Shown here: positions 8,169-55,703 of the stretch, piece after piece | Layout: every line of letters starts with the position of its first letter | Position numbering within the stretch: position 1 is the stretch's first letter | Assembly (NCBI RefSeq): GCF_013167455.1 | Contig: NZ_CP038328.1 | DNA from: Escherichia coli O157:H7 | GTDB taxonomy: Bacteria; Pseudomonadota; Gammaproteobacteria; Enterobacterales; Enterobacteriaceae | DNA length: 64,000 bases | Strand: one strand, 5' to 3' | Translations under genes and position numbers: made by a program | Notes under the pieces: generated by a model | Database searches by the model: none | Told to the model about the DNA's origin: nothing | What the model saw: only the letters and a program-made list of their open reading frames with translations

Positions 8169-9428
8169 ATGACGGAACAAGAAAAAACCTCCGCCGTGGT
8201 TGAAGAGACCAGGGAGGCCGTGGACACCACGTCACAACCTGTCGCAACAGAAAAAAAGAGTAAGAACAATACCGCATTGATTCTCAGCGCGGTGGCTATC
8301 GCTATTGCTCTGGCGGCGGGCGTCGGTTTGTATGGCTGGGGTAAACAACAGGCCGTCAATCAGACCGCCACCAGCGATGCCCTGGCTAACCAACTGACGG
8401 CATTGCAAAAAGCCCAGGAGAGCCAAAAAGTCGAGCTGGAAGGCATTATTAAGCAACAAGCTGCACAGCTTAAGCAGGCGAATCGTCAGCAAGAAACGCT
8501 GGCAAAACAGTTGGATGAAGTCCAACAAAAGGTCGCCACCATTTCCGGCAGCGATGCTAAAACCTGGCTGCTGGCTCAGGCCGATTTTCTGGTGAAACTC
8601 GCCGGACGGAAGCTGTGGAGCGATCAGGACGTCACGACCGCTGCAGCGTTGCTGAAAAGTGCAGACGCCAGCCTGGCGGATATGAATGACCCGAGTCTGA
8701 TTACCGTTCGTCGGGCAATTACCGATGATATCGCCAGCCTTTCTGCAGTATCGCAGGTGGATTATGACGGCATCATCCTTAAGCTTAATCAGCTTTCAAA
8801 TCAGGTAGATAACCTGCGTCTGGCCGATAATGACAGCGATGGTTCGCCGATGGATTCCGACGGTGAAGAGCTTTCCAGTTCCATCAGCGAATGGCGTATC
8901 AATCTGCAAAAAAGCTGGCAGAACTTTATGGACAACTTCATTACGATTCGCCGTCGTGATGACACCGCCGTACCGCTGTTAGCGCCAAATCAGGATATCT
9001 ATCTGCGCGAAAATATTCGCTCTCGCCTGCTGGTCGCAGCACAAGCTGTACCGCGTCACCAGCAAGAGACTTATCGCCAGGCGCTGGAGAACGTCTCCAC
9101 CTGGGTACGTGCTTACTACGATACTGATGATGCCACCACCAAAGCGTTCCTCGACGAGGTAGACCAGTTAAGCCAGCAAAATATCTCGATGGATCTTCCG
9201 GAAACCCTGCAAAGCCAGGCGATGCTGGAAAAACTGATGCAGACTCGCGTGCGTAACCTGCTGGCACAACCGGCAGCGGGGACAACGGAAGCTAAACCTG
9301 CACCTGCACCTGCACCTGCACCTGCACCTGCACCTGCACCTGCACCTGCACCTGCACCTGCACCTGCACCTGCACCTGCACCTGCACCGCAAGCTGATAC
9401 TCCGGCAGCCGCGCCGCAAGGAGAATAA
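8169..9428 (+). CDS. hemX: HemX membrane protein with expanded C-terminal (Pro-Ala)15 tract
   Basis: 419-aa [21 protein letters not shown]..., single TM segment, coiled-coil rich; C-terminal PA repeat. Confidence 0.88.
9297..9386 (+). repeat. Perfect hexanucleotide microsatellite (CCTGCA)15, in frame within hemX
   Basis: 15 uninterrupted CCTGCA units read directly from the sequence, codon-aligned to hemX (cct gca = Pro-Ala). Confidence 0.95.
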
Positions 9429-10673: not shown

Positions 10674-10880
10674 TAAAAAAACGCCTGCTCTTATTACGGA
10701 GCAGGCGTTAAAACAGGTCTGTATGACAACAAGTGGGTGCTTCACTCAACGTTGTGTCCATGGTGTCTGATGAGGCATAAGCGACATCTGTCAGTGGACG
10801 ATAAGCACCGTAAACGGCTCTGCGTCATTCCGGAGTTTATGAGGCACTAAGGCGAACATAAGAGATGGAATGAGCATCTA
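10674..10880 (-). ncRNA. glmZ: GlmZ small RNA (Hfq/RapZ-dependent activator of glmS)
   Basis: Minus-strand sequence GTAGATGCTCATTCCATCTCTTATGTTCGCC...CGCCTGCTCCGTAATAAGAGCAGGCGTTTTTTT matches the GlmZ sequence as I recall it; ends in an 11-bp perfect stem plus U7 terminator; hemY-aslA intergenic location. Confidence 0.85.
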
Positions 10881-11305
10881 CTCGTTTATTATGCCACAGA
10901 GAATCGGGAAATAACATCCCTTAACACTTGTTATGAGATAATTCTGTAATCCTCTTTGCTTCCTGAGTAATAACTTCCTGAGTGAATATTTAACCTGAGC
11001 TTGATCCTACACATACTTATTATGAATGATAAAATTCATTCAATTAATAACACATATATTAATTGCCGTTAAAACTAAAAACAGCATCAATAATCAACGC
11101 GATATAATAAACCTGCCTTACATATCAACTGCGCCAGAGGTAGGATTGAAAACGCTCTCCTGATTTTTAAATTCATTTCTTGGATAAATAAATAATTTAT
11201 TTTTATCACTATTATTTATGTAATCATCCTGTCAGGGAGAGGGATCTCAATTATCAATGCTTAATTACGTCATCATTTTGTTGACATGAAACCGGAGCAT
11301 TTTGC

Positions 11306-13128: not shown

Positions 13129-14364
13129 TTACTTACTCACCACCAGCAAATGCGCCTGCATAATGTCGCTGGCCGGGCGACCGTGCGCCAGCAAATCAGC
13201 CATTGCTTTAAGATATGGCGGTAGATGGCGGAAATAACGCTGATACCCGGCACACAAATAATTCAGTCCCGGTTTGCCGCTGGCATCGAGCATGAAGCGG
13301 TGTTTCGGGCAGCCTCCCCAACATGCTTTTAACACGTTACAACTGCGACACTGCGCCGGTAATTGCTTAAATTTATCTTCACCAAACACCTGCTGTTGCG
13401 GGGAATCGATCATTTCTGCAATTGTTTGCTGGTGCATATTCCCCAGTCGATATTGCGGATAAACATAGTGATCGCAGGCGTAAACGTCGCCATTGTGCTC
13501 AACAATCACCGAGCGCCCACAGGTTGGCTGATGATGGCAAACCGCACCCGGCGCACCGACAAAATTGGCAAACGCCCATTCGATATTCATCACGAAAATC
13601 TTGCCGACGTCGCGTTTAATCCAGTGGTCGAATATCGCCACCAGAAATTCACCAAATTCATCGGGGCGCACAGACCATTCCGTCAGTTCCCCCTGAATAT
13701 CACCAGGCGCATGTAGTTTCAGTCCTTCGCGGGCAGTCGTTTCATCAGCCAGGCGCTCGACCACCGGAATAAACTGGATGAATTCGACTCCCGCATCGCA
13801 CAAAAAATCATAAACCTGTAACGGTTGCTGCGCGCTGGTGCGGTTGACGCAGACCAGCACGTTATAGTCGACATGATGTTTTTGCAGGAGCGTCAGGGCA
13901 CGCATCACCAGTTTATGCGTGGGTCTGCCGCCTTTTGTCACGCGATATTGATTGTGGATCTCAGCCGGACCATCCAGCGATAACCCAACAAGAAAATGAT
14001 TTTCTGCCAGAAATGCACACCATTCATCATCGAGCAGTACGCCGTTAGTCTGGAAGCTGTTACTTATCTTCCTGCCAGCACCATATTTCGCCTGTAGCGC
14101 CACGGCACGGCGGTAAAACTCCAGCCCGAGTAGCGTTGGTTCGCCGCCCTGCCAGGTAAAAGCCACTTCGTTTTGCGGTTCGCTGGCAGCGATATAGTGA
14201 CGGACATACGCTTCCAGCGTGTCATCGTCCATATGCGTGACTGGCTTTTCGCGGTAAAGGGATTGTTTTTCGAGATAAAAACAGTAGTCACAGTTCAGAT
14301 TACAATCGGAACCGCTCGGTTTCGCCATCACATGAAAAGCACGCGTTGGAACCTGTTGCAGCAT
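13129..14364 (-). CDS. aslB: Anaerobic sulfatase-maturating enzyme homolog (radical SAM)
   Basis: Translation MLQQVPTRAFHVMAKPSGSDCNLNCDYCFY... (CxxxCxxC radical-SAM motif); track ORF extends 10 codons upstream. Confidence 0.9.
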   Translation of the reverse strand: MLQQVPTRAFHVMAKPSGSDCNLNCDYCFYLEKQSLYREKPVTHMDDDTLEAYVRHYIAASEPQNEVAFTWQGGEPTLLGLEFYRRAVALQAKYGAGRKISNSFQTNGVLLDDEWCAFLAENHFLVGLSLDGPAEIHNQYRVTKGGRPTHKLVMRALTLLQKHHVDYNVLVCVNRTSAQQPLQVYDFLCDAGVEFIQFIPVVERLADETTAREGLKLHAPGDIQGELTEWSVRPDEFGEFLVAIFDHWIKRDVGKIFVMNIEWAFANFVGAPGAVCHHQPTCGRSVIVEHNGDVYACDHYVYPQYRLGNMHQQTIAEMIDSPQQQVFGEDKFKQLPAQCRSCNVLKACWGGCPKHRFMLDASGKPGLNYLCAGYQRYFRHLPPYLKAMADLLAHGRPASDIMQAHLLVVSK

Positions 14365-14475
14365 GGTCGCTCCTTGCCTGAAGTCATCCTTCAATACGTT
14401 AAGGGCGAAATCATACCGTGGGGCAATGAGTTATTACGGGCGTTTATTGCGAAGGGAGGGTGACGAAATGCACAG

Positions 14476-14504
14476 AAAACAAAAAACCCCGCCGAAGCGG
14501 GGTT
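14476..14504 (-). terminator. Intrinsic terminator of the tRNA operon (downstream of proM)
   Basis: Minus-strand hairpin AACCCCGCUUCGGCGGGGUU followed by U-rich run. Confidence 0.7.
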
Positions 14505-14510
14505 CAAAAT

Positions 14511-14587
14511 TGGTCGGCGAGAGAGGATTCGAACCTCCGACCCACTGGTCCCAAACCAGTTGCGCTACCAAGCTGCGCTACTCGCCG
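14511..14587 (-). tRNA. proM: tRNA-Pro (anticodon UGG)
   Basis: 77-nt reverse-complement match to canonical E. coli tRNA-Pro incl. encoded CCA. Confidence 0.95.
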
Positions 14588-14629
14588 AAATACTGCTTTT
14601 TGAATTTTTAGTTCAATTCTTTAAAGTCG

Positions 14630-14716
14630 TGGTGCGAGGGGGGGGACTTGAACCCCCACGTCCGTAAGGACACTAACACCTGAAGCTAGCGCGTCTACCA
14701 ATTCCGCCACCTTCGC
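14630..14716 (-). tRNA. leuT: tRNA-Leu (anticodon CAG), distal copy
   Basis: 87-nt match to E. coli tRNA-Leu(CAG) with long variable arm and CCA. Confidence 0.93.
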
Positions 14717-14736
14717 ATTGTCACAACTTCTAATAA

Positions 14737-14813
14737 TGGGGTGGCTAATGGGATTCGAACCTCCGACCCACTGGTCCCAAACCAGTTGCGCTACCAAGCT
14801 GCGCTACTCGCCG
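14737..14813 (-). pseudogene. Chimeric tRNA-like element: tRNA-Pro(UGG) 5' body fused at the T-loop to the tRNA-His 3' T-stem/acceptor strand
   Basis: Read 5'->3' on minus strand: CGGCGAGTAGCGCAGCTTGGTAGCGCAACTGGTTTGGGACCAGTGGGTCGGAG (proM-identical) + GTTCGAATCCCATTAGCCACCCCA (hisR-identical); acceptor and T stems no longer base-pair. Confidence 0.85.
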
Positions 14814-14855
14814 AAATACTGCTTTTTGAATTTTTAGTTCAATTCTTTAAAGTCG

Positions 14856-14942
14856 TGGTGCGAGGGGGGGGACTTGAACCCCCACGTCCGTAAGGACACT
14901 AACACCTGAAGCTAGCGCGTCTACCAATTCCGCCACCTTCGC
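14856..14942 (-). tRNA. leuT: tRNA-Leu (anticodon CAG), proximal copy
   Basis: Identical 87-nt sequence to the copy at 14630-14716. Confidence 0.93.
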
Positions 14943-14962
14943 ATTGTCACAACTTCTAATAA

Positions 14963-15039
14963 TGGGGTGGCTAATGGGATTCGAACCCACGACAACTGGA
15001 ATCACAATCCAGGGCTCTACCAACTGAGCTATAGCCACC
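14963..15039 (-). tRNA. hisR: tRNA-His (anticodon GUG)
   Basis: 77-nt match to E. coli tRNA-His incl. extra 5' G(-1) and CCA. Confidence 0.95.
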
Positions 15040-15096
15040 ACTACAAATCTTGTTACGCGGTATTACTACCACCGCAGCTCAAGCGCCGGGACTAAA

Positions 15097-15173
<77 letters not shown>

Positions 15174-15186
15174 TTAGCGCCGTTGC

Positions 15187-15240
15187 GGGGGTGGATAATA
15201 CGGACTTCCCCCCCCTCTGTCTAGTCCCTTTTTAAATAAA
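15187..15240 (-). promoter_or_regulatory. Sigma-70 promoter of the tRNA operon (-35 TAGACA, 17-bp spacer, -10 TATTAT, GC-rich discriminator, AT-rich upstream)
   Basis: Minus strand: TAGACA (15218-15223), TATTAT (15195-15200), then CCACCCCCGC before argX 5' end; inference from consensus. Confidence 0.6.
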
Positions 15241-15275
15241 TTGCGCGTTTGGTTACGGTTTGTGCGTTTTGCTGC

Positions 15276-16661
15276 TTATTCCTCCAGTTTATGCGCTTTC
15301 CCGTGGCGATTAAGGCCAAAAACTTTATAAATCGCCGTCACCGCCAGCATAAAGATGATGCCAACAAACAGCGACATACGCGTATCTTCATTAAAGTACA
15401 TGCCGATCAAAACGCAAATCAGGAATGCCATTGTTACGTAGTTGGCCCACGGGAACAGGATTGAGCGGAACGGATGGCTGGCAATCGCCGCTTTATGTGC
15501 ACGCCGAAAACGCAGCTGGCTTATCAATATCACAAACCATGGCACCATCCCCGGAAGCACGCTGGCACTGTAGACGTAGACAAACACACGCTGCGGATTG
15601 GGAATGATGTAGTTCAGGCATGAGCCAATTAGCAGAATAGCAATAGATACTGCCACACCCGCAACCGGTACGCCGTGACGGGAAACTTTCGCCATCGCCG
15701 CCGGTAACTGACGGTTTTTCGCCAGTGCGTAGAGCATACGTCCGCAACTGTACATGCCGCTGTTACAGCCAGAGAGCGCAGCCGTCAGCACCACAAAGTT
15801 GATAATGCCCGCCGCTGCGGTAATACCGATTTTGGCAAAAGTCAGTACGAACGGGCTGCCGTTGCTGCCTATTTCATTCCACGGGAAGATGGTGACGATA
15901 ACGAAAATCGCGCCAACGTAGAAAATCAGGATCCGCCACAGCACCTTGCCTACGGCACTGCGCAGCGTCACCTGCGGATTCTTCGCTTCACCGGCAGTAA
16001 TGCCAATCAGCTCCACGCCCTGGTAGGACGCCACCACAATACACAGCGCGGTCAGGAACCCTTTCCAGCCACCCGCAAAGAAACCGCCATGCTCTGTGAG
16101 ATTGCTAAAACCAATCGACTGCCCGCCATTGCCAAAGCCAAAGAAAATCACGCCCAGGCCAATGACAATCATCACGATAATCGTGGTGACTTTGATCATC
16201 GCGAACCAGAACTCGATTTCGCCGTACAACCGCACCGCTGCCAGATTCGCCAACGCCACCAGCGCCACTGCGATCAATGCGGGTATCCACTGCGCCATCT
16301 CCGGGAACCAGAACTGGACATAAACGCCAATGGCGGTGATTTCAGAGATCCCCACCGCCATCCACATAAACCAGTAAGACCAGGCGGTGAGATAGCCAAA
16401 GAACGGGCTCATATAACGATGCGCATAAACGGCGAACGAACCGGTAACCGGTTCGAGGAACAACATTTCGCCCATTGAACGCATGATGAAAAAGACGAAC
16501 AGCCCGGCGATGATATAGGCCAACAATACGGATGGCCCGGCCCATTTCAGGGTACTGGCGGCCCCCATAAACAGGCCGACGCCAATGGTGCCCCCCAGGG
16601 CGATGAGTTCGATATGTCGAGCTTCCAGCCCACGCTGTAGCTCTGGTTTGTTATCTGCCAT
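15276..16661 (-). CDS. yifK: Amino-acid permease family transporter YifK
   Basis: 461-aa polytopic membrane [36 protein letters not shown]... (APC-type N-terminal motif). Confidence 0.9.
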
Positions 16662-31457: not shown

Positions 31458-31787
31458 TTACGCCAGGTTAGCGTCGAGGAACTCTTTCAACTGACCTTTA
31501 GACAGTGCGCCCACTTTGGTTGCCGCCACTTCACCGTTTTTGAACAGCAGCAGAGTCGGGATACCACGGATGCCATATTTCGGCGCAGTGCCAGGGTTTT
31601 GATCGATGTTCAGTTTTGCAACGGTCAGTTTGCCCTGATATTCGTCAGCGATTTCATCCAGAATCGGGGCGATCATTTTGCACGGACCGCACCACTCTGC
31701 CCAGAAATCGACGAGGATCGCCCCGTCCGCTTTGAGTACATCCGTGTCAAAACTGTCGTCAGTCAGGTGAATAATTTTATCGCTCAT
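31458..31787 (-). CDS. trxA: Thioredoxin 1
   Basis: Translation [41 protein letters not shown]... (WCGPC active site); track ORF has a 35-codon upstream extension. Confidence 0.97.
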
Positions 31788-31917
31788 ATATAACTCCACA
31801 GGAATAAGCCTGGCGTGTTGGTTTCGTTGTTGGTGTAACATTAACCAACTAAAGGTTGACTTTATTTCACCGGATACGCTTTCGTAAAGCAATAGTAAGC
31901 TGATATTCTACCACACT

Positions 31918-47089: not shown

Positions 47090-47188
47090 CTAAGCCTTTC
47101 CTCGTCCAAGTGCAGCCCCGCACGGTGGGATAATAATCACCACCACGCTAATCACGACCAGGCTAATCACTCGTAGAAGGGCTGTCAT
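47090..47188 (-). CDS. ilvL: ilvGMEDA leader peptide (Val/Ile/Leu-rich)
   Basis: 32-codon minus-strand ORF MTALLRVISLVVISVVVIIIPPCGAALGRGKA. Confidence 0.9.
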   Translation of the reverse strand: MTALLRVISLVVISVVVIIIPPCGAALGRGKA

Positions 47189-47540
47189 TTTGTCTTTTCT
47201 TGCATCTTGTTCGAAGGAATGCCTAAAGAGTTACCATAGATTTTGCGAATAGCACAAGATATTTTTTGGCCGTTTTTTATGATGGCTTTAATAATTTCAA
47301 TAGAAATTGTTGTTTTTTAAAAAGAAAATAGTGAGTGAAAAAAATTCAATTTCAGTACGAATGTTGTTCCCTCCCTCGTAGTTCATCCTTTGTCCGCTGC
47401 ATTTTTGCGAGCATCATTCCACCGCCAGAACAACTCAACTTCACTTGCACAAATAAACAGGAATCAGCCACTAAAATTCACGAATTAGCGGGCTACAGCA
47501 GCGATATCTTATGCACATAATGGTGACTCAAGGAGGGCTT

Positions 47541-50477: not shown

Positions 50478-50553
50478 TGGCAGGGGCGGAGAGACTCGAA
50501 CTCCCAACACCCGGTTTTGGAGACCGGTGCTCTACCAATTGAACTACGCCCCT
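50478..50553 (-). tRNA. trpT: tRNA-Trp (anticodon CCA), distal gene of rRNA operon
   Basis: 76-nt reverse-complement match to E. coli tRNA-Trp. Confidence 0.95.
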
Positions 50554-50561
50554 AATTAGGG

Positions 50562-50638
50562 TGGCGGAACGGACGGGACTCGAACCCGCGACCCCCTGCG
50601 TGACAGGCAGGTATTCTAACCGACTGAACTACCGCTCC
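50562..50638 (-). tRNA. aspT: tRNA-Asp (anticodon GUC), distal gene of rRNA operon
   Basis: 77-nt reverse-complement match to E. coli tRNA-Asp. Confidence 0.95.
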
Positions 50639-50690
50639 ACCGAATTCTTTTACAACCACCGGTTTTATGACCGGCTTACTGCTTAATTTG

Positions 50691-50810
50691 ATGCCTGGCA
50701 GTTCCCTACTCTCGCATGGGGAGACCCCACACTACCATCGGCGCTACGGCGTTTCACTTCTGAGTTCGGCATGGGGTCAGGTGGGACCACCGCGCTAAGG
50801 CCGCCAGGCA
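50691..50810 (-). rRNA. rrfC: 5S ribosomal RNA
   Basis: 120-nt match to E. coli 5S rRNA (minus strand begins TGCCTGGCGGC..., ends ...CCAGGCAT). Confidence 0.95.
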
Positions 50811-50902
50811 AATTCTGTTTTATCAGACCGCTTCTGCGTTCTGATTTAATCTGTATCAGGCCGAAAATCTTCTCTCATCCGCCAAAACACCTTCGGCGTT
50901 GT

Positions 50903-53807
<2,905 letters not shown>

Positions 53808-54000
53808 TCACAACCCGAAGATGTTTCTTTCGATTCATCATCGTGTTGCGAAAATTTGAGAGACTCACGAACAACTCTCGTTGTTCAGTGTTTCAATTTT
53901 CAGCTTGATCCAGATTTTTAAAGAGCAAATATCTCAAACATCACCCGAAGATGAGTTTTGAGATATTAAGGTCGGCGACTTTCACTCACAAACCAGCAAG

Positions 54001-54076
54001 TGGCGTCCCCTAGGGGATTCGAACCCCTGTTACCGCCGTGAAAGGGCGGTGTCCTGGGCCTCTAGACGAAGGGGAC
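54001..54076 (-). tRNA. gltU: tRNA-Glu (anticodon UUC) in the 16S-23S spacer
   Basis: 76-nt reverse-complement match to E. coli tRNA-Glu. Confidence 0.95.
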
Positions 54077-54161
54077 GTATCAGTCTGCTTCGCAAGACGC
54101 CTTGCTTTTCACTTTCTATCAGACAATCTGTGTGAGCACTGCAAAGTACGCTTCTTTAAGG

Positions 54162-55703
<1,542 letters not shown>

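What the first reader, a model, noticed from the sequence alone, without database searches (positions are those of the whole stretch)
14525..14987. Perfect 226-bp tandem duplication inside the argX-hisR-leuT-proM tRNA operon
Two base-for-base identical 226-bp units (14525-14750, 14751-14976) sit head to tail, each bounded by the 11-bp motif GGATTCGAACC that the hisR and proM T-arms share. The operon therefore reads argX-hisR-leuT-[chimera]-leuT-proM rather than the four-gene arrangement I recall for K-12. This is the expected product of unequal crossing-over at the 11-bp microhomology. Zero divergence between copies suggests a recent event, an unstable amplification, or an assembly artifact.
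Basis: partly seen in the sequence, partly recalled or inferred. Interest (0 to 1): 0.75.

Follow-up and report, generated by a model that had tools for sequence, protein, structure and literature searches.

The report
O157:H7 tandem leuT tRNA duplication
The perfect 226-bp tandem repeat is real, but it is the normal, long-annotated form of the argX tRNA operon in E. coli O157:H7; it adds a second leucine tRNA gene plus a broken proline/histidine hybrid, so it is a lineage marker and not an artefact or a new kind of element.

Summary
Window 14525-14750 and 14751-14976 are identical, and the 11-mer GGATTCGAACC lies at both ends and at the junction. On the minus strand the operon reads argX-hisR-leuT-[proM 5' part/hisR 3' end]-leuT-proM.

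It is not an assembly artefact or a private amplification. The chimeric junction occurs, always at 100% identity, in 287 of 5,426 complete E. coli genomes. All are the O157:H7 clone, including Sakai, EDL933 and TW14359. Sakai's record already names the genes leuT1, tRNA51, leuT2 and proM2.

O55:H7 genomes and the early-branching O157:H7 strain LSU61 have one unit, so the duplication arose once, at the T-loop microhomology. The locus later varied in copy number. Two genomes have three units. Eleven crown O157:H7 genomes have one unit, and flanking SNPs show at least two independent contractions (or assembly collapses).

The reciprocal deletion and the four other possible T-loop recombinants are absent from all 5,426 genomes. 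Every base is native, identical to K-12.

The hybrid cannot form a cloverleaf, so it is a pseudo-tRNA. The extra leuT keeps both native spacers and is probably functional; this is inferred, not shown.

Already known and ordinary; low interest.

The parts
15195..15223 (-). Sigma-70-type promoter-like site upstream of argX (TAGACA, 17-nt spacer, TATTAT). It lies where the published pArgX promoter and precursor 5' end are.
   Evidence: Consensus scan. The 5' end of the in vitro precursor used in PMC3985628 (AACGGCGCTAAGCGCCCG) begins a few bases downstream. The sequence is identical to K-12.
15097..15173 (-). argX, tRNA-Arg(CCG). It lies outside the duplication. Its T-loop also carries the 11-mer, at 15111-15121.
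   Evidence: ARAGORN. Rfam tRNA model 64.1 bits. 11-mer position.
14963..15038 (-). hisR, tRNA-His(GTG), intact. Its T-loop 11-mer (14977-14987) is the promoter-proximal boundary of the repeat.
   Evidence: ARAGORN. Rfam 69.7 bits. Canonical cloverleaf as the MFE structure.
14751..14976 (.). Repeat unit 2 (promoter-proximal). In the sense direction it holds the hisR 3' end, the hisR-leuT spacer, leuT, the leuT-proM spacer and the first 63 nt of proM.
   Evidence: 226 of 226 columns are identical to K-12.
14856..14942 (-). leuT copy 1 (Sakai 'leuT1'), tRNA-Leu(CAG), with native 5' and 3' spacers.
   Evidence: ARAGORN. Rfam 48.5 bits. Sakai annotation.
14737..14813 (-). Chimeric pseudo-tRNA (Sakai 'tRNA51'). 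The proM 5' 63 nt, including anticodon TGG, is joined at the T-loop to the hisR 3' acceptor strand and CCA.
   Evidence: 63-nt prefix equals proM and 25-nt suffix equals hisR. The T-stem has 2 Watson-Crick pairs and 1 G-U of 5. The acceptor stem has 1 Watson-Crick pair and 1 G-U of 7. There is no cloverleaf and z = -0.02. Rfam tRNA score is 34.6 bits against 65.8 for proM. ARAGORN and the Sakai record call it tRNA-Pro; PGAP leaves it out.
14751..14761 (.). Novel junction: the central copy of the 11-nt microhomology GGATTCGAACC (sense strand GGTTCGAATCC, the T-loop).
   Evidence: The 60-nt junction probe matches 287 of 5,426 genomes, all at 100%.
14525..14750 (.). Repeat unit 1 (promoter-distal), identical to unit 2.
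14630..14716 (-). leuT copy 2 (Sakai 'leuT2'), tRNA-Leu(CAG), with native spacers on both sides.
14511..14587 (-). proM (Sakai 'proM2'), intact tRNA-Pro(TGG). Its T-loop 11-mer (14525-14535) is the distal boundary of the repeat.
   Evidence: ARAGORN. Rfam 65.8 bits. Cloverleaf as the MFE structure.
14475..14505 (-). Rho-independent terminator of the operon: a 9-bp stem followed by a T-run.
   Evidence: Terminator scan. It matches the reverse primer for the precursor 3' end in PMC3985628.

Best explanation
This is the O157:H7 form of the chromosomal argX-hisR-leuT-proM tRNA operon.

Origin (inferred from structure and distribution): in an ancestor of today's O157:H7 clone, after it split from O55:H7 and from LSU61-like early O157:H7, one illegitimate exchange occurred. 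It was either replication slippage or unequal sister-strand exchange. It joined the 11-nt T-loop sequence GGTTCGAATCC of proM to the identical sequence in hisR, 226 bp upstream. This duplicated the segment between them.

Product (shown): the operon has six elements. argX, hisR and proM are untouched. There are two identical leuT genes, each with its native 5' and 3' spacers. Between them lies a hybrid with a proM body and a hisR 3' strand that cannot form an acceptor stem or a full T-stem.

Expression (inferred): the roughly 713-nt transcript from the argX promoter is cut by RNase E in the duplicated AU-rich spacers, as in K-12. Both leuT copies mature, taking tRNA-Leu(CAG) genes from 4 to 5. 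The hybrid is a poor RNase P substrate and is degraded.

Later history (shown by distribution and SNPs): the two 226-bp repeats now give enough homology for ordinary unequal recombination. The array has therefore contracted to one unit at least twice and expanded to three units in two genomes.

Reciprocal deletion (absence shown, reason from general knowledge): it would destroy hisR, the only tRNA-His gene. It is never seen.
For: Structure. All sequence is native; both units and the argX-hisR part are 100% identical to K-12.

Distribution: the junction is in 287 of 5,426 complete genomes, always 100% identical, and all named carriers are O157 or O157:H7. An unnamed pig isolate, NJS001, differs from the window by 2 mismatches in 11.4 kb, so it is the same clone. 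The junction is absent from the representative genomes of about 100,000 species.

Ancestral state: eight named O55:H7 genomes and LSU61 have one unit with identical or one-SNP flanks. CB9615 and LSU61 carry ancestral alleles at five sites where all crown strains are derived.

Secondary contraction: single-copy 26_141088 shares derived SNPs 12049 and 17925 with two-copy TW14359. Single-copy Xuzhou21, F8952 and RIMD 0509939 share derived 19230 with two-copy EDL933 and Sakai.

Expansion: strain 319 has three exact units at 226-bp spacing, and AR-0430 has three leuT genes.

No reciprocal deletion and no other T-loop recombinant.

The hybrid is non-functional by structure.

Processing model: RNase E sites E1-E5 lie in single-stranded AU-rich spacers of this precursor (PMC3985628). 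proM is released by RNase E cuts 3, 4 and 15 nt upstream and matured at its 3' end by RNase E (PMC5291269). Those spacers are duplicated intact.
Against: No RNA data for O157:H7 were examined, so expression of the second leuT and the fate of the hybrid are inferences. The Rfam tRNA model still scores the hybrid above its gathering threshold (34.6 against 29), and ARAGORN calls it a tRNA. Some of the 11 single-copy O157:H7 assemblies could be collapsed repeats and not real contractions; read data and sequencing platforms could not be checked. Three single-copy strains (Z887, Z1835, MB9-1) are not resolved by SNPs in the region examined and could in principle be basal. Slippage and unequal exchange cannot be told apart from sequence.
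Confidence: 0.9

Rival explanations
1. Assembly artefact: the assembler wrongly doubled a 226-bp segment.
For: Perfect identity of the copies is what an artefact would also give.
Against: The identical junction is present in 287 independently assembled complete genomes from many laboratories and years, including Sakai, EDL933, TW14359 and EC4115. It is specifically absent from the sister O55:H7 genomes.
Confidence: 0.01
2. A recent, private or transient amplification in this particular isolate.
For: Zero divergence between copies. Copy number does vary from 1 to 3 within the clone.
Against: About 96% of crown O157:H7 genomes share exactly two units, on both sides of internal SNP splits: EDL933 and Sakai on one side, TW14359, FRIK944 and NJS001 on the other. 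The duplication therefore predates the diversification of the clone. Zero divergence is expected for 226 bp made mostly of tRNA sequence in a young clone. The flanks show only about 0-2 SNPs per 14-35 kb between strains.
Confidence: 0.03
3. Recurrent independent duplications at the same microhomology, instead of one origin followed by losses.
For: The 11-mer is a natural slippage site. Single-copy and two-copy strains are interleaved on the SNP table.
Against: In 5,139 genomes outside the clone the junction never occurs. None of the four other possible T-loop recombinants occurs anywhere. De novo formation at an 11-nt repeat is therefore rare. Loss by recombination between two 226-bp repeats is expected to be far more frequent (general knowledge of repeat-length dependence).
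Confidence: 0.04
4. Remnant of a mobile element or prophage integration at a tRNA gene (att-site duplication of a tRNA 3' end).
For: O157:H7 carries many elements integrated at tRNA genes, and a partial tRNA copy is typical of att sites (general knowledge).
Against: There is no foreign DNA. Every base of both units is identical to the K-12 operon. The partial copy is a tRNA 5' body fused to another tRNA's 3' end, not a duplicated 3' end flanking an insert. The neighbours are aslB and thrP, as in K-12.
Confidence: 0.01
5. The duplication is kept by selection for higher tRNA-Leu(CAG) gene dosage. This is an addition to the structural explanation, not an alternative to it.
For: It is retained in about 96% of crown genomes although direct repeats allow loss. 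Changes in tRNA gene copy number by tandem duplication can be adaptive in experimental evolution of Pseudomonas (PMC7661048 and PMC10954465, listed).
Against: No fitness or expression data exist. A 4-to-5 gene change is modest. Single-copy revertants persist in nature. Retention can also be explained by a low loss rate over a short clone history.
Confidence: 0.2

Closest known systems
The argX-hisR-leuT-proM operon of E. coli O157:H7 str. Sakai (NC_002695.2: argX, hisR, leuT1, tRNA51, leuT2, proM2)
   Same: 100% identical over window 14400-15300, with the same six elements in the same order. EDL933, TW14359, EC4115 and about 280 other complete O157:H7 genomes are also identical.
   Different: Nothing in the sequence differs. 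Only the annotation varies: Sakai calls the hybrid a tRNA-Pro, while RefSeq PGAP omits it.
The four-gene argX-hisR-leuT-proM operon of E. coli K-12 (b3796-b3799)
   Same: The promoter region, all four genes, all spacers and the terminator are base-for-base identical. The published RNase E and RNase P processing scheme applies to the same spacers (PMC3985628, PMC5291269).
   Different: K-12 and about 95% of E. coli genomes have one 226-bp unit, so one leuT and no hybrid.
Tandem duplication and unequal recombination of bacterial tRNA genes. Examples: the tyrT-tyrV pair and the glyV-X-Y and leuQPV arrays of E. coli (general knowledge), and experimentally evolved tRNA gene duplications in Pseudomonas fluorescens SBW25 (PMC7661048, PMC10954465).
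   Same: Gene copy number changes through head-to-tail duplication. The resulting repeats later expand and contract by homologous recombination.
   Different: Here the unit is very small (226 bp, against tens of kb or more in SBW25). The breakpoints lie inside two different tRNA genes at their shared T-loop. A non-functional hybrid tRNA is therefore a by-product.

Membership tests
Microhomology-bounded tandem duplication (illegitimate recombination or slippage product) | Two head-to-tail units of identical sequence | tested here: met
   226 of 226 bases identical, TRF score 926.
Microhomology-bounded tandem duplication (illegitimate recombination or slippage product) | Unit boundaries coincide with a short direct repeat that already exists in the single-copy ancestral sequence; n+1 copies flank n units | tested here: met
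   GGATTCGAACC lies at 14525, 14751 and 14977. In K-12 the same 11-mer is in the hisR and proM T-loops, 226 bp apart.
Microhomology-bounded tandem duplication (illegitimate recombination or slippage product) | Closest outgroups carry the single-copy state with otherwise identical flanks | tested here: met
   O55:H7 genomes and LSU61 match a synthetic single-copy query at 99.9-100% in one piece.
Microhomology-bounded tandem duplication (illegitimate recombination or slippage product) | No foreign DNA at the junction | tested here: met
   Both units have 0 mismatches to K-12.
Functional tRNA-Pro(UGG) gene (for the hybrid at 14737-14813) | Cloverleaf with a 7-bp acceptor stem and a 5-bp T-stem | tested here: not met
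   The acceptor stem has 1 Watson-Crick pair and 1 G-U of 7. The T-stem has 2 Watson-Crick pairs and 1 G-U of 5. The MFE structure is not a cloverleaf and z = -0.02.
Functional tRNA-Pro(UGG) gene (for the hybrid at 14737-14813) | Covariance-model score comparable to genuine tRNAs | tested here: inconclusive
   34.6 bits is above the Rfam gathering score of 29, but it is about half of proM's 65.8 bits and five pairs are flagged as non-canonical. ARAGORN accepts it; PGAP does not annotate it.
Functional tRNA-Pro(UGG) gene (for the hybrid at 14737-14813) | Processed, stable, aminoacylated RNA in vivo | not testable with these tools
   No RNA data are available.
Integrative-element att-site duplication at a tRNA gene | Duplicated tRNA 3' segment flanking inserted foreign DNA that carries an integrase | tested here: not met
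   There is no insert, and the unit is entirely native operon sequence.
Assembly artefact | Not reproduced in independent assemblies of related strains | tested here: not met
   Reproduced in 287 complete genomes.
argX polycistronic tRNA operon | Single promoter upstream of argX, tRNA genes on one strand, Rho-independent terminator after proM | tested here: met
   Promoter-like site at 15223-15195 and terminator at 14505-14484. Gene order. Identity to K-12.

The most novel reading that the evidence does not exclude
The duplication is not neutral. Either the extra leuT is kept by selection because it raises the supply of tRNA-Leu(CAG) in the O157:H7 clone, or the proM/hisR hybrid accumulates as a stable tRNA-like RNA with a role of its own, for example as a decoy for RNase P or RNase E or as a source of tRNA-derived fragments. 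The 1, 2 or 3 copy variation would then be a tunable dosage switch.
Probability: 0.08. Interest if true: 0.4.

Novelty: already known. Interest (0 to 1): 0.15.

Why it matters
It matters little for new biology. The arrangement has been in the Sakai reference annotation for years, and the mechanism is textbook.

Its practical value is threefold:
1. It is a clean structural marker. A 226-bp size difference across argX-proM separates crown O157:H7 from O55:H7, from LSU61-like ancestors and from all other E. coli in the collection, with about 4% reversion.
2. It is an annotation trap. ARAGORN, the Rfam tRNA model and the Sakai record count the hybrid as a tRNA-Pro, whereas PGAP does not, so tRNA gene counts for O157:H7 differ between pipelines.
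3. It is a small natural example of a tRNA gene copy-number change. It has a single microhomology-mediated origin, later homologous contraction and expansion, and a missing lethal reciprocal product. It could serve as a convenient assay locus for repeat instability.

Tried and rejected
1. Reciprocal deletion junction (proM 3' end, 11-mer, hisR body): no match in 5,426 genomes.
2. Four other possible T-loop recombinants, tested as one concatenated probe: hisR-body/argX-3' and proM-body/argX-3' duplications, and argX-body/hisR-3' and argX-body/proM-3' deletions. No match, although argX shares the 11-mer, and a 13-mer with proM.
3. Exact 33-nt junction in about 100,000 species representative genomes: no match.
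4. Literature. Searches combining leuT, proM, argX, hisR, O157, O55, duplication and the Sakai gene names found no paper on this duplication. One further search for a strain name returned only EDL933 locus-tag matches. The E. coli tRNA copy-number study (PMC4539685) treats plus-or-minus-one variation only in a supplement and says no tandem arrangement was evident for its enriched tRNAs. The O55:H7 to O157:H7 derivation paper does not mention it.
5. Other Rfam families at E-value up to 1 in the region (rsmX, PrrF, istR and others) all score far below their gathering thresholds. They are driven by the terminator hairpin or the tRNA sequence, so I rejected them.
6. Apparent TW14359 'variants' at 14988-15027 are a BLAST alignment-boundary artefact at the repeat. 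One search shows that strain to be 100% identical there.
7. I could not resolve whether Z887, Z1835 and MB9-1 lost the unit or never had it. There is no informative SNP in the region examined.

Full report
**1. Observation**

The sequence at 14200-15400 contains a perfect tandem repeat. Tandem Repeats Finder reports a single array at 14525-14987 with period 226, 2.0 copies, 100% matches and no indels, score 926. A direct comparison shows that 14525-14750 equals 14751-14976, and that period-226 identity begins exactly at 14525 and ends exactly at 14987.

The 11-mer GGATTCGAACC is found at 14525, 14751 and 14977. These are the two outer boundaries and the junction. It is also found in argX at 15111. 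The only other copy in the 64-kb window is in a tRNA-Glu T-arm.

ARAGORN places six tRNA-like genes on the minus strand: Arg(CCG), His(GTG), Leu(CAG), 'Pro(TGG)', Leu(CAG) and Pro(TGG).

**2. Anatomy**

Read in the direction of transcription (minus strand), the locus has these parts:
- a promoter-like site at 15223-15195;
- argX, hisR, leuT, a hybrid, leuT and proM;
- a Rho-independent terminator at 14505-14484.

The predicted primary transcript is about 713 nt, against about 487 nt for the four-gene form.

The hybrid (14813-14737) is identical to proM for its first 63 nt, through the anticodon arm and into the T-loop. It is identical to hisR for its last 25 nt. The overlap between the two is the shared 11-mer.

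Its T-stem keeps 2 Watson-Crick pairs and 1 G-U pair of 5. Its acceptor stem keeps 1 Watson-Crick pair and 1 G-U pair of 7. Its minimum-energy fold is not a cloverleaf and is no more stable than shuffled sequence (z = -0.02), while proM and hisR fold as canonical cloverleaves.

The Rfam tRNA model gives the hybrid 34.6 bits with five flagged non-canonical pairs. That compares with 65.8 bits for proM and 69.7 for hisR.

Both leuT copies are intact. Each is flanked by the native hisR-leuT and leuT-proM spacers. Both units, and the argX-hisR part, have no mismatch to E. coli K-12. There is no foreign DNA.

**3. Distribution**

A 901-nt query across the locus matches many complete O157:H7 genomes at 100% in one piece, including Sakai, EDL933, TW14359 and EC4115.

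A 60-nt probe centred on the novel junction was run with an E-value limit that excludes half-matches. It hits 287 of 5,426 complete E. coli genomes, all at 100% identity and all on chromosomes.
- Every carrier with a serotype in its name is O157 or O157:H7.
- An unnamed pig isolate (NJS001) differs from the window by 2 mismatches in 11.4 kb of flank, so it is the same clone.
- The junction is absent from the representative genomes of about 100,000 bacterial and archaeal species.

The Sakai reference record annotates the six elements as argX, hisR, leuT1, tRNA51 (tRNA-Pro), leuT2 and proM2. RefSeq PGAP annotation of other strains lists two tRNA-Leu genes and omits the hybrid.

This rules out an assembly artefact and a private amplification. 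It also shows that the arrangement is already on public record.

**4. Origin**

A synthetic single-copy version of the locus with 1-kb O157 flanks matches, in one piece at 99.9-100%, these genomes:
- all named O55:H7 genomes in the top rows (DEC5A, DEC5B, DEC5D, DEC5E, CB9615, RM12579, TB182A, USDA5905);
- the deer isolate O157:H7 LSU61;
- eleven typical O157:H7 genomes.

In a SNP table of the surrounding region, CB9615 and LSU61 share ancestral alleles at five sites (window 11516, 15211, 19354, 20601, 20952). Every other O157:H7 strain is derived at those sites.

The duplication therefore arose once, after the split from O55:H7 and LSU61-like strains. It arose by joining the proM T-loop to the identical 11 nt of the hisR T-loop 226 bp upstream. 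Whether this was replication slippage or unequal sister-strand exchange cannot be decided from sequence.

The event is rare. No other lineage among 5,139 non-carrier genomes has the junction. None of the four other recombinants that the shared argX, hisR and proM T-loop sequence would allow is found anywhere.

**5. Later copy-number change**

Strain 319 (UK, human) has three exact units at 226-bp spacing with three annotated tRNA-Leu genes. AR-0430 also has three.

Among single-copy O157:H7 genomes:
- 26_141088 shares two derived SNPs (12049, 17925) with two-copy TW14359.
- Xuzhou21, F8952 and RIMD 0509939 share derived 19230 (and, for Xuzhou21, also 32975) with two-copy EDL933 and Sakai.
- Other two-copy strains (FRIK944, NJS001 and the window itself) and the outgroups have the ancestral alleles at these sites.

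Single-copy genomes are thus nested in at least two different duplication-bearing subclades. That means at least two independent contractions, or assembly collapses, which I could not exclude without reads. Z887, Z1835 and MB9-1 are unresolved.

In round numbers, about 96% of crown genomes have two units, about 4% have one and under 1% have three. This is what ordinary homologous unequal recombination between two 226-bp direct repeats should produce.

**6. The reciprocal product**

The deletion that unequal exchange would also generate is a hisR body joined to the proM 3' end, with leuT lost. It is absent from all 5,426 genomes. From general knowledge, hisR is the only tRNA-His gene of E. coli, so this product should be lethal. 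That explains its absence.

**7. Function (inferred)**

In K-12 the argX precursor is opened by RNase E at sites in the single-stranded, AU-rich spacers (PMC3985628). proM is released by RNase E cuts 3, 4 and 15 nt upstream of its 5' end, and its 3' end is made by RNase E just after CCA (PMC5291269).

The duplicated unit carries complete copies of the hisR-leuT and leuT-proM spacers. Both leuT copies should therefore be excised and matured normally, raising tRNA-Leu(CAG) genes from four (leuT, leuQ, leuP and leuV in K-12, general knowledge) to five.

The hybrid lacks the acceptor and T-stem stack that RNase P recognises. It is expected to be discarded. No RNA data were available to test either point.

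**8. Literature**

I found no paper that discusses this duplication.
- A study of tRNA gene copy number in E. coli that included Sakai, EDL933, TW14359, EC4115, CB9615 and RM12579 dealt with plus-or-minus-one differences only in a supplementary table. It stated that no tandem arrangement was evident for the tRNAs it called enriched in O157:H7 (PMC4539685).
- The O55:H7 to O157:H7 derivation paper does not mention it (PMC2806823).
- Tandem duplication as a route to tRNA copy-number change is well documented elsewhere (PMC7661048, PMC10954465).

**9. Verdict**

The suggestions of a recent event, a strongly unstable amplification or an assembly artefact are not supported.

The feature is the standard, already annotated O157:H7 allele of a housekeeping tRNA operon. 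What this analysis adds is modest: a single origin bracketed between LSU61-like strains and the crown clone, 1-3 copy variation with at least two reversions, the absence of every alternative recombinant, and the hybrid as an annotation trap.

Interest is low (0.15). Novelty: already known.

Noticed in passing
window 9296-9388 (inside hemX): A perfect 6-bp tandem repeat, ACCTGC x 15.5. Its length differs between almost all strains compared: the distance between anchor sequences ranges from 172 to 250 bp in 6-bp steps, and annotated hemX length ranges from 1182 to 1260 nt. It is probably one of the hexamer VNTR loci used for O157 MLVA typing (from memory, not checked). The window shares its long allele with UK strain Z887.
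   Followed up: partly
window 14737-14813; L016-L019 (EDL933, TW14359, FRIK944, 180-PT54): Annotation is inconsistent. ARAGORN, the Rfam tRNA model (34.6 bits, above the gathering score of 29) and the Sakai record call the hybrid a tRNA-Pro. PGAP omits it, and PGAP locus tags skip one number exactly there (for example EDL933_RS25260 then RS25250), which suggests a feature was once annotated and later dropped. tRNA counts for O157:H7 therefore depend on the pipeline.
   Followed up: partly
L003 (NZ_CP044140.1, AR-0430) 806-891 and 1031-1116: Two of the three leuT copies in this triple-unit genome are annotated as 86 nt instead of 87. A one-base deletion is consistent with the 99.7% identity over 285 bases, probably in the G8 homopolymer, so this is likely a sequencing error and not a real mutation. 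The position was not inspected.
   Followed up: no
E. coli genome search results: A few matches to the operon lie on plasmids: 8 places with the 901-nt query and 1 place with the 286-nt leuT-centred probe at E<=1e-50. One genome has 4 places for the probe, and a third genome has two junction places without being a simple triplication. This suggests a larger segmental duplication or a second copy of the operon in some strains.
   Followed up: no
window 15111-15121 (argX T-loop): argX shares the same 11-mer with hisR and proM, and a 13-mer (AGGTTCGAATCCT) with proM. Even so, none of the duplications or deletions that this would allow is present in 5,426 genomes.
   Followed up: yes
window 10675-10881, 31758-31857, 46970-47259, 50481-55703: The rest of the window's RNA content is ordinary for this chromosomal region: GlmZ sRNA, the trxA 5' UTR element, a Rev39-type 5' UTR match, and a complete rRNA operon (16S, tRNA-Glu, 23S, 5S, tRNA-Asp, tRNA-Trp) on the minus strand.
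   Followed up: no
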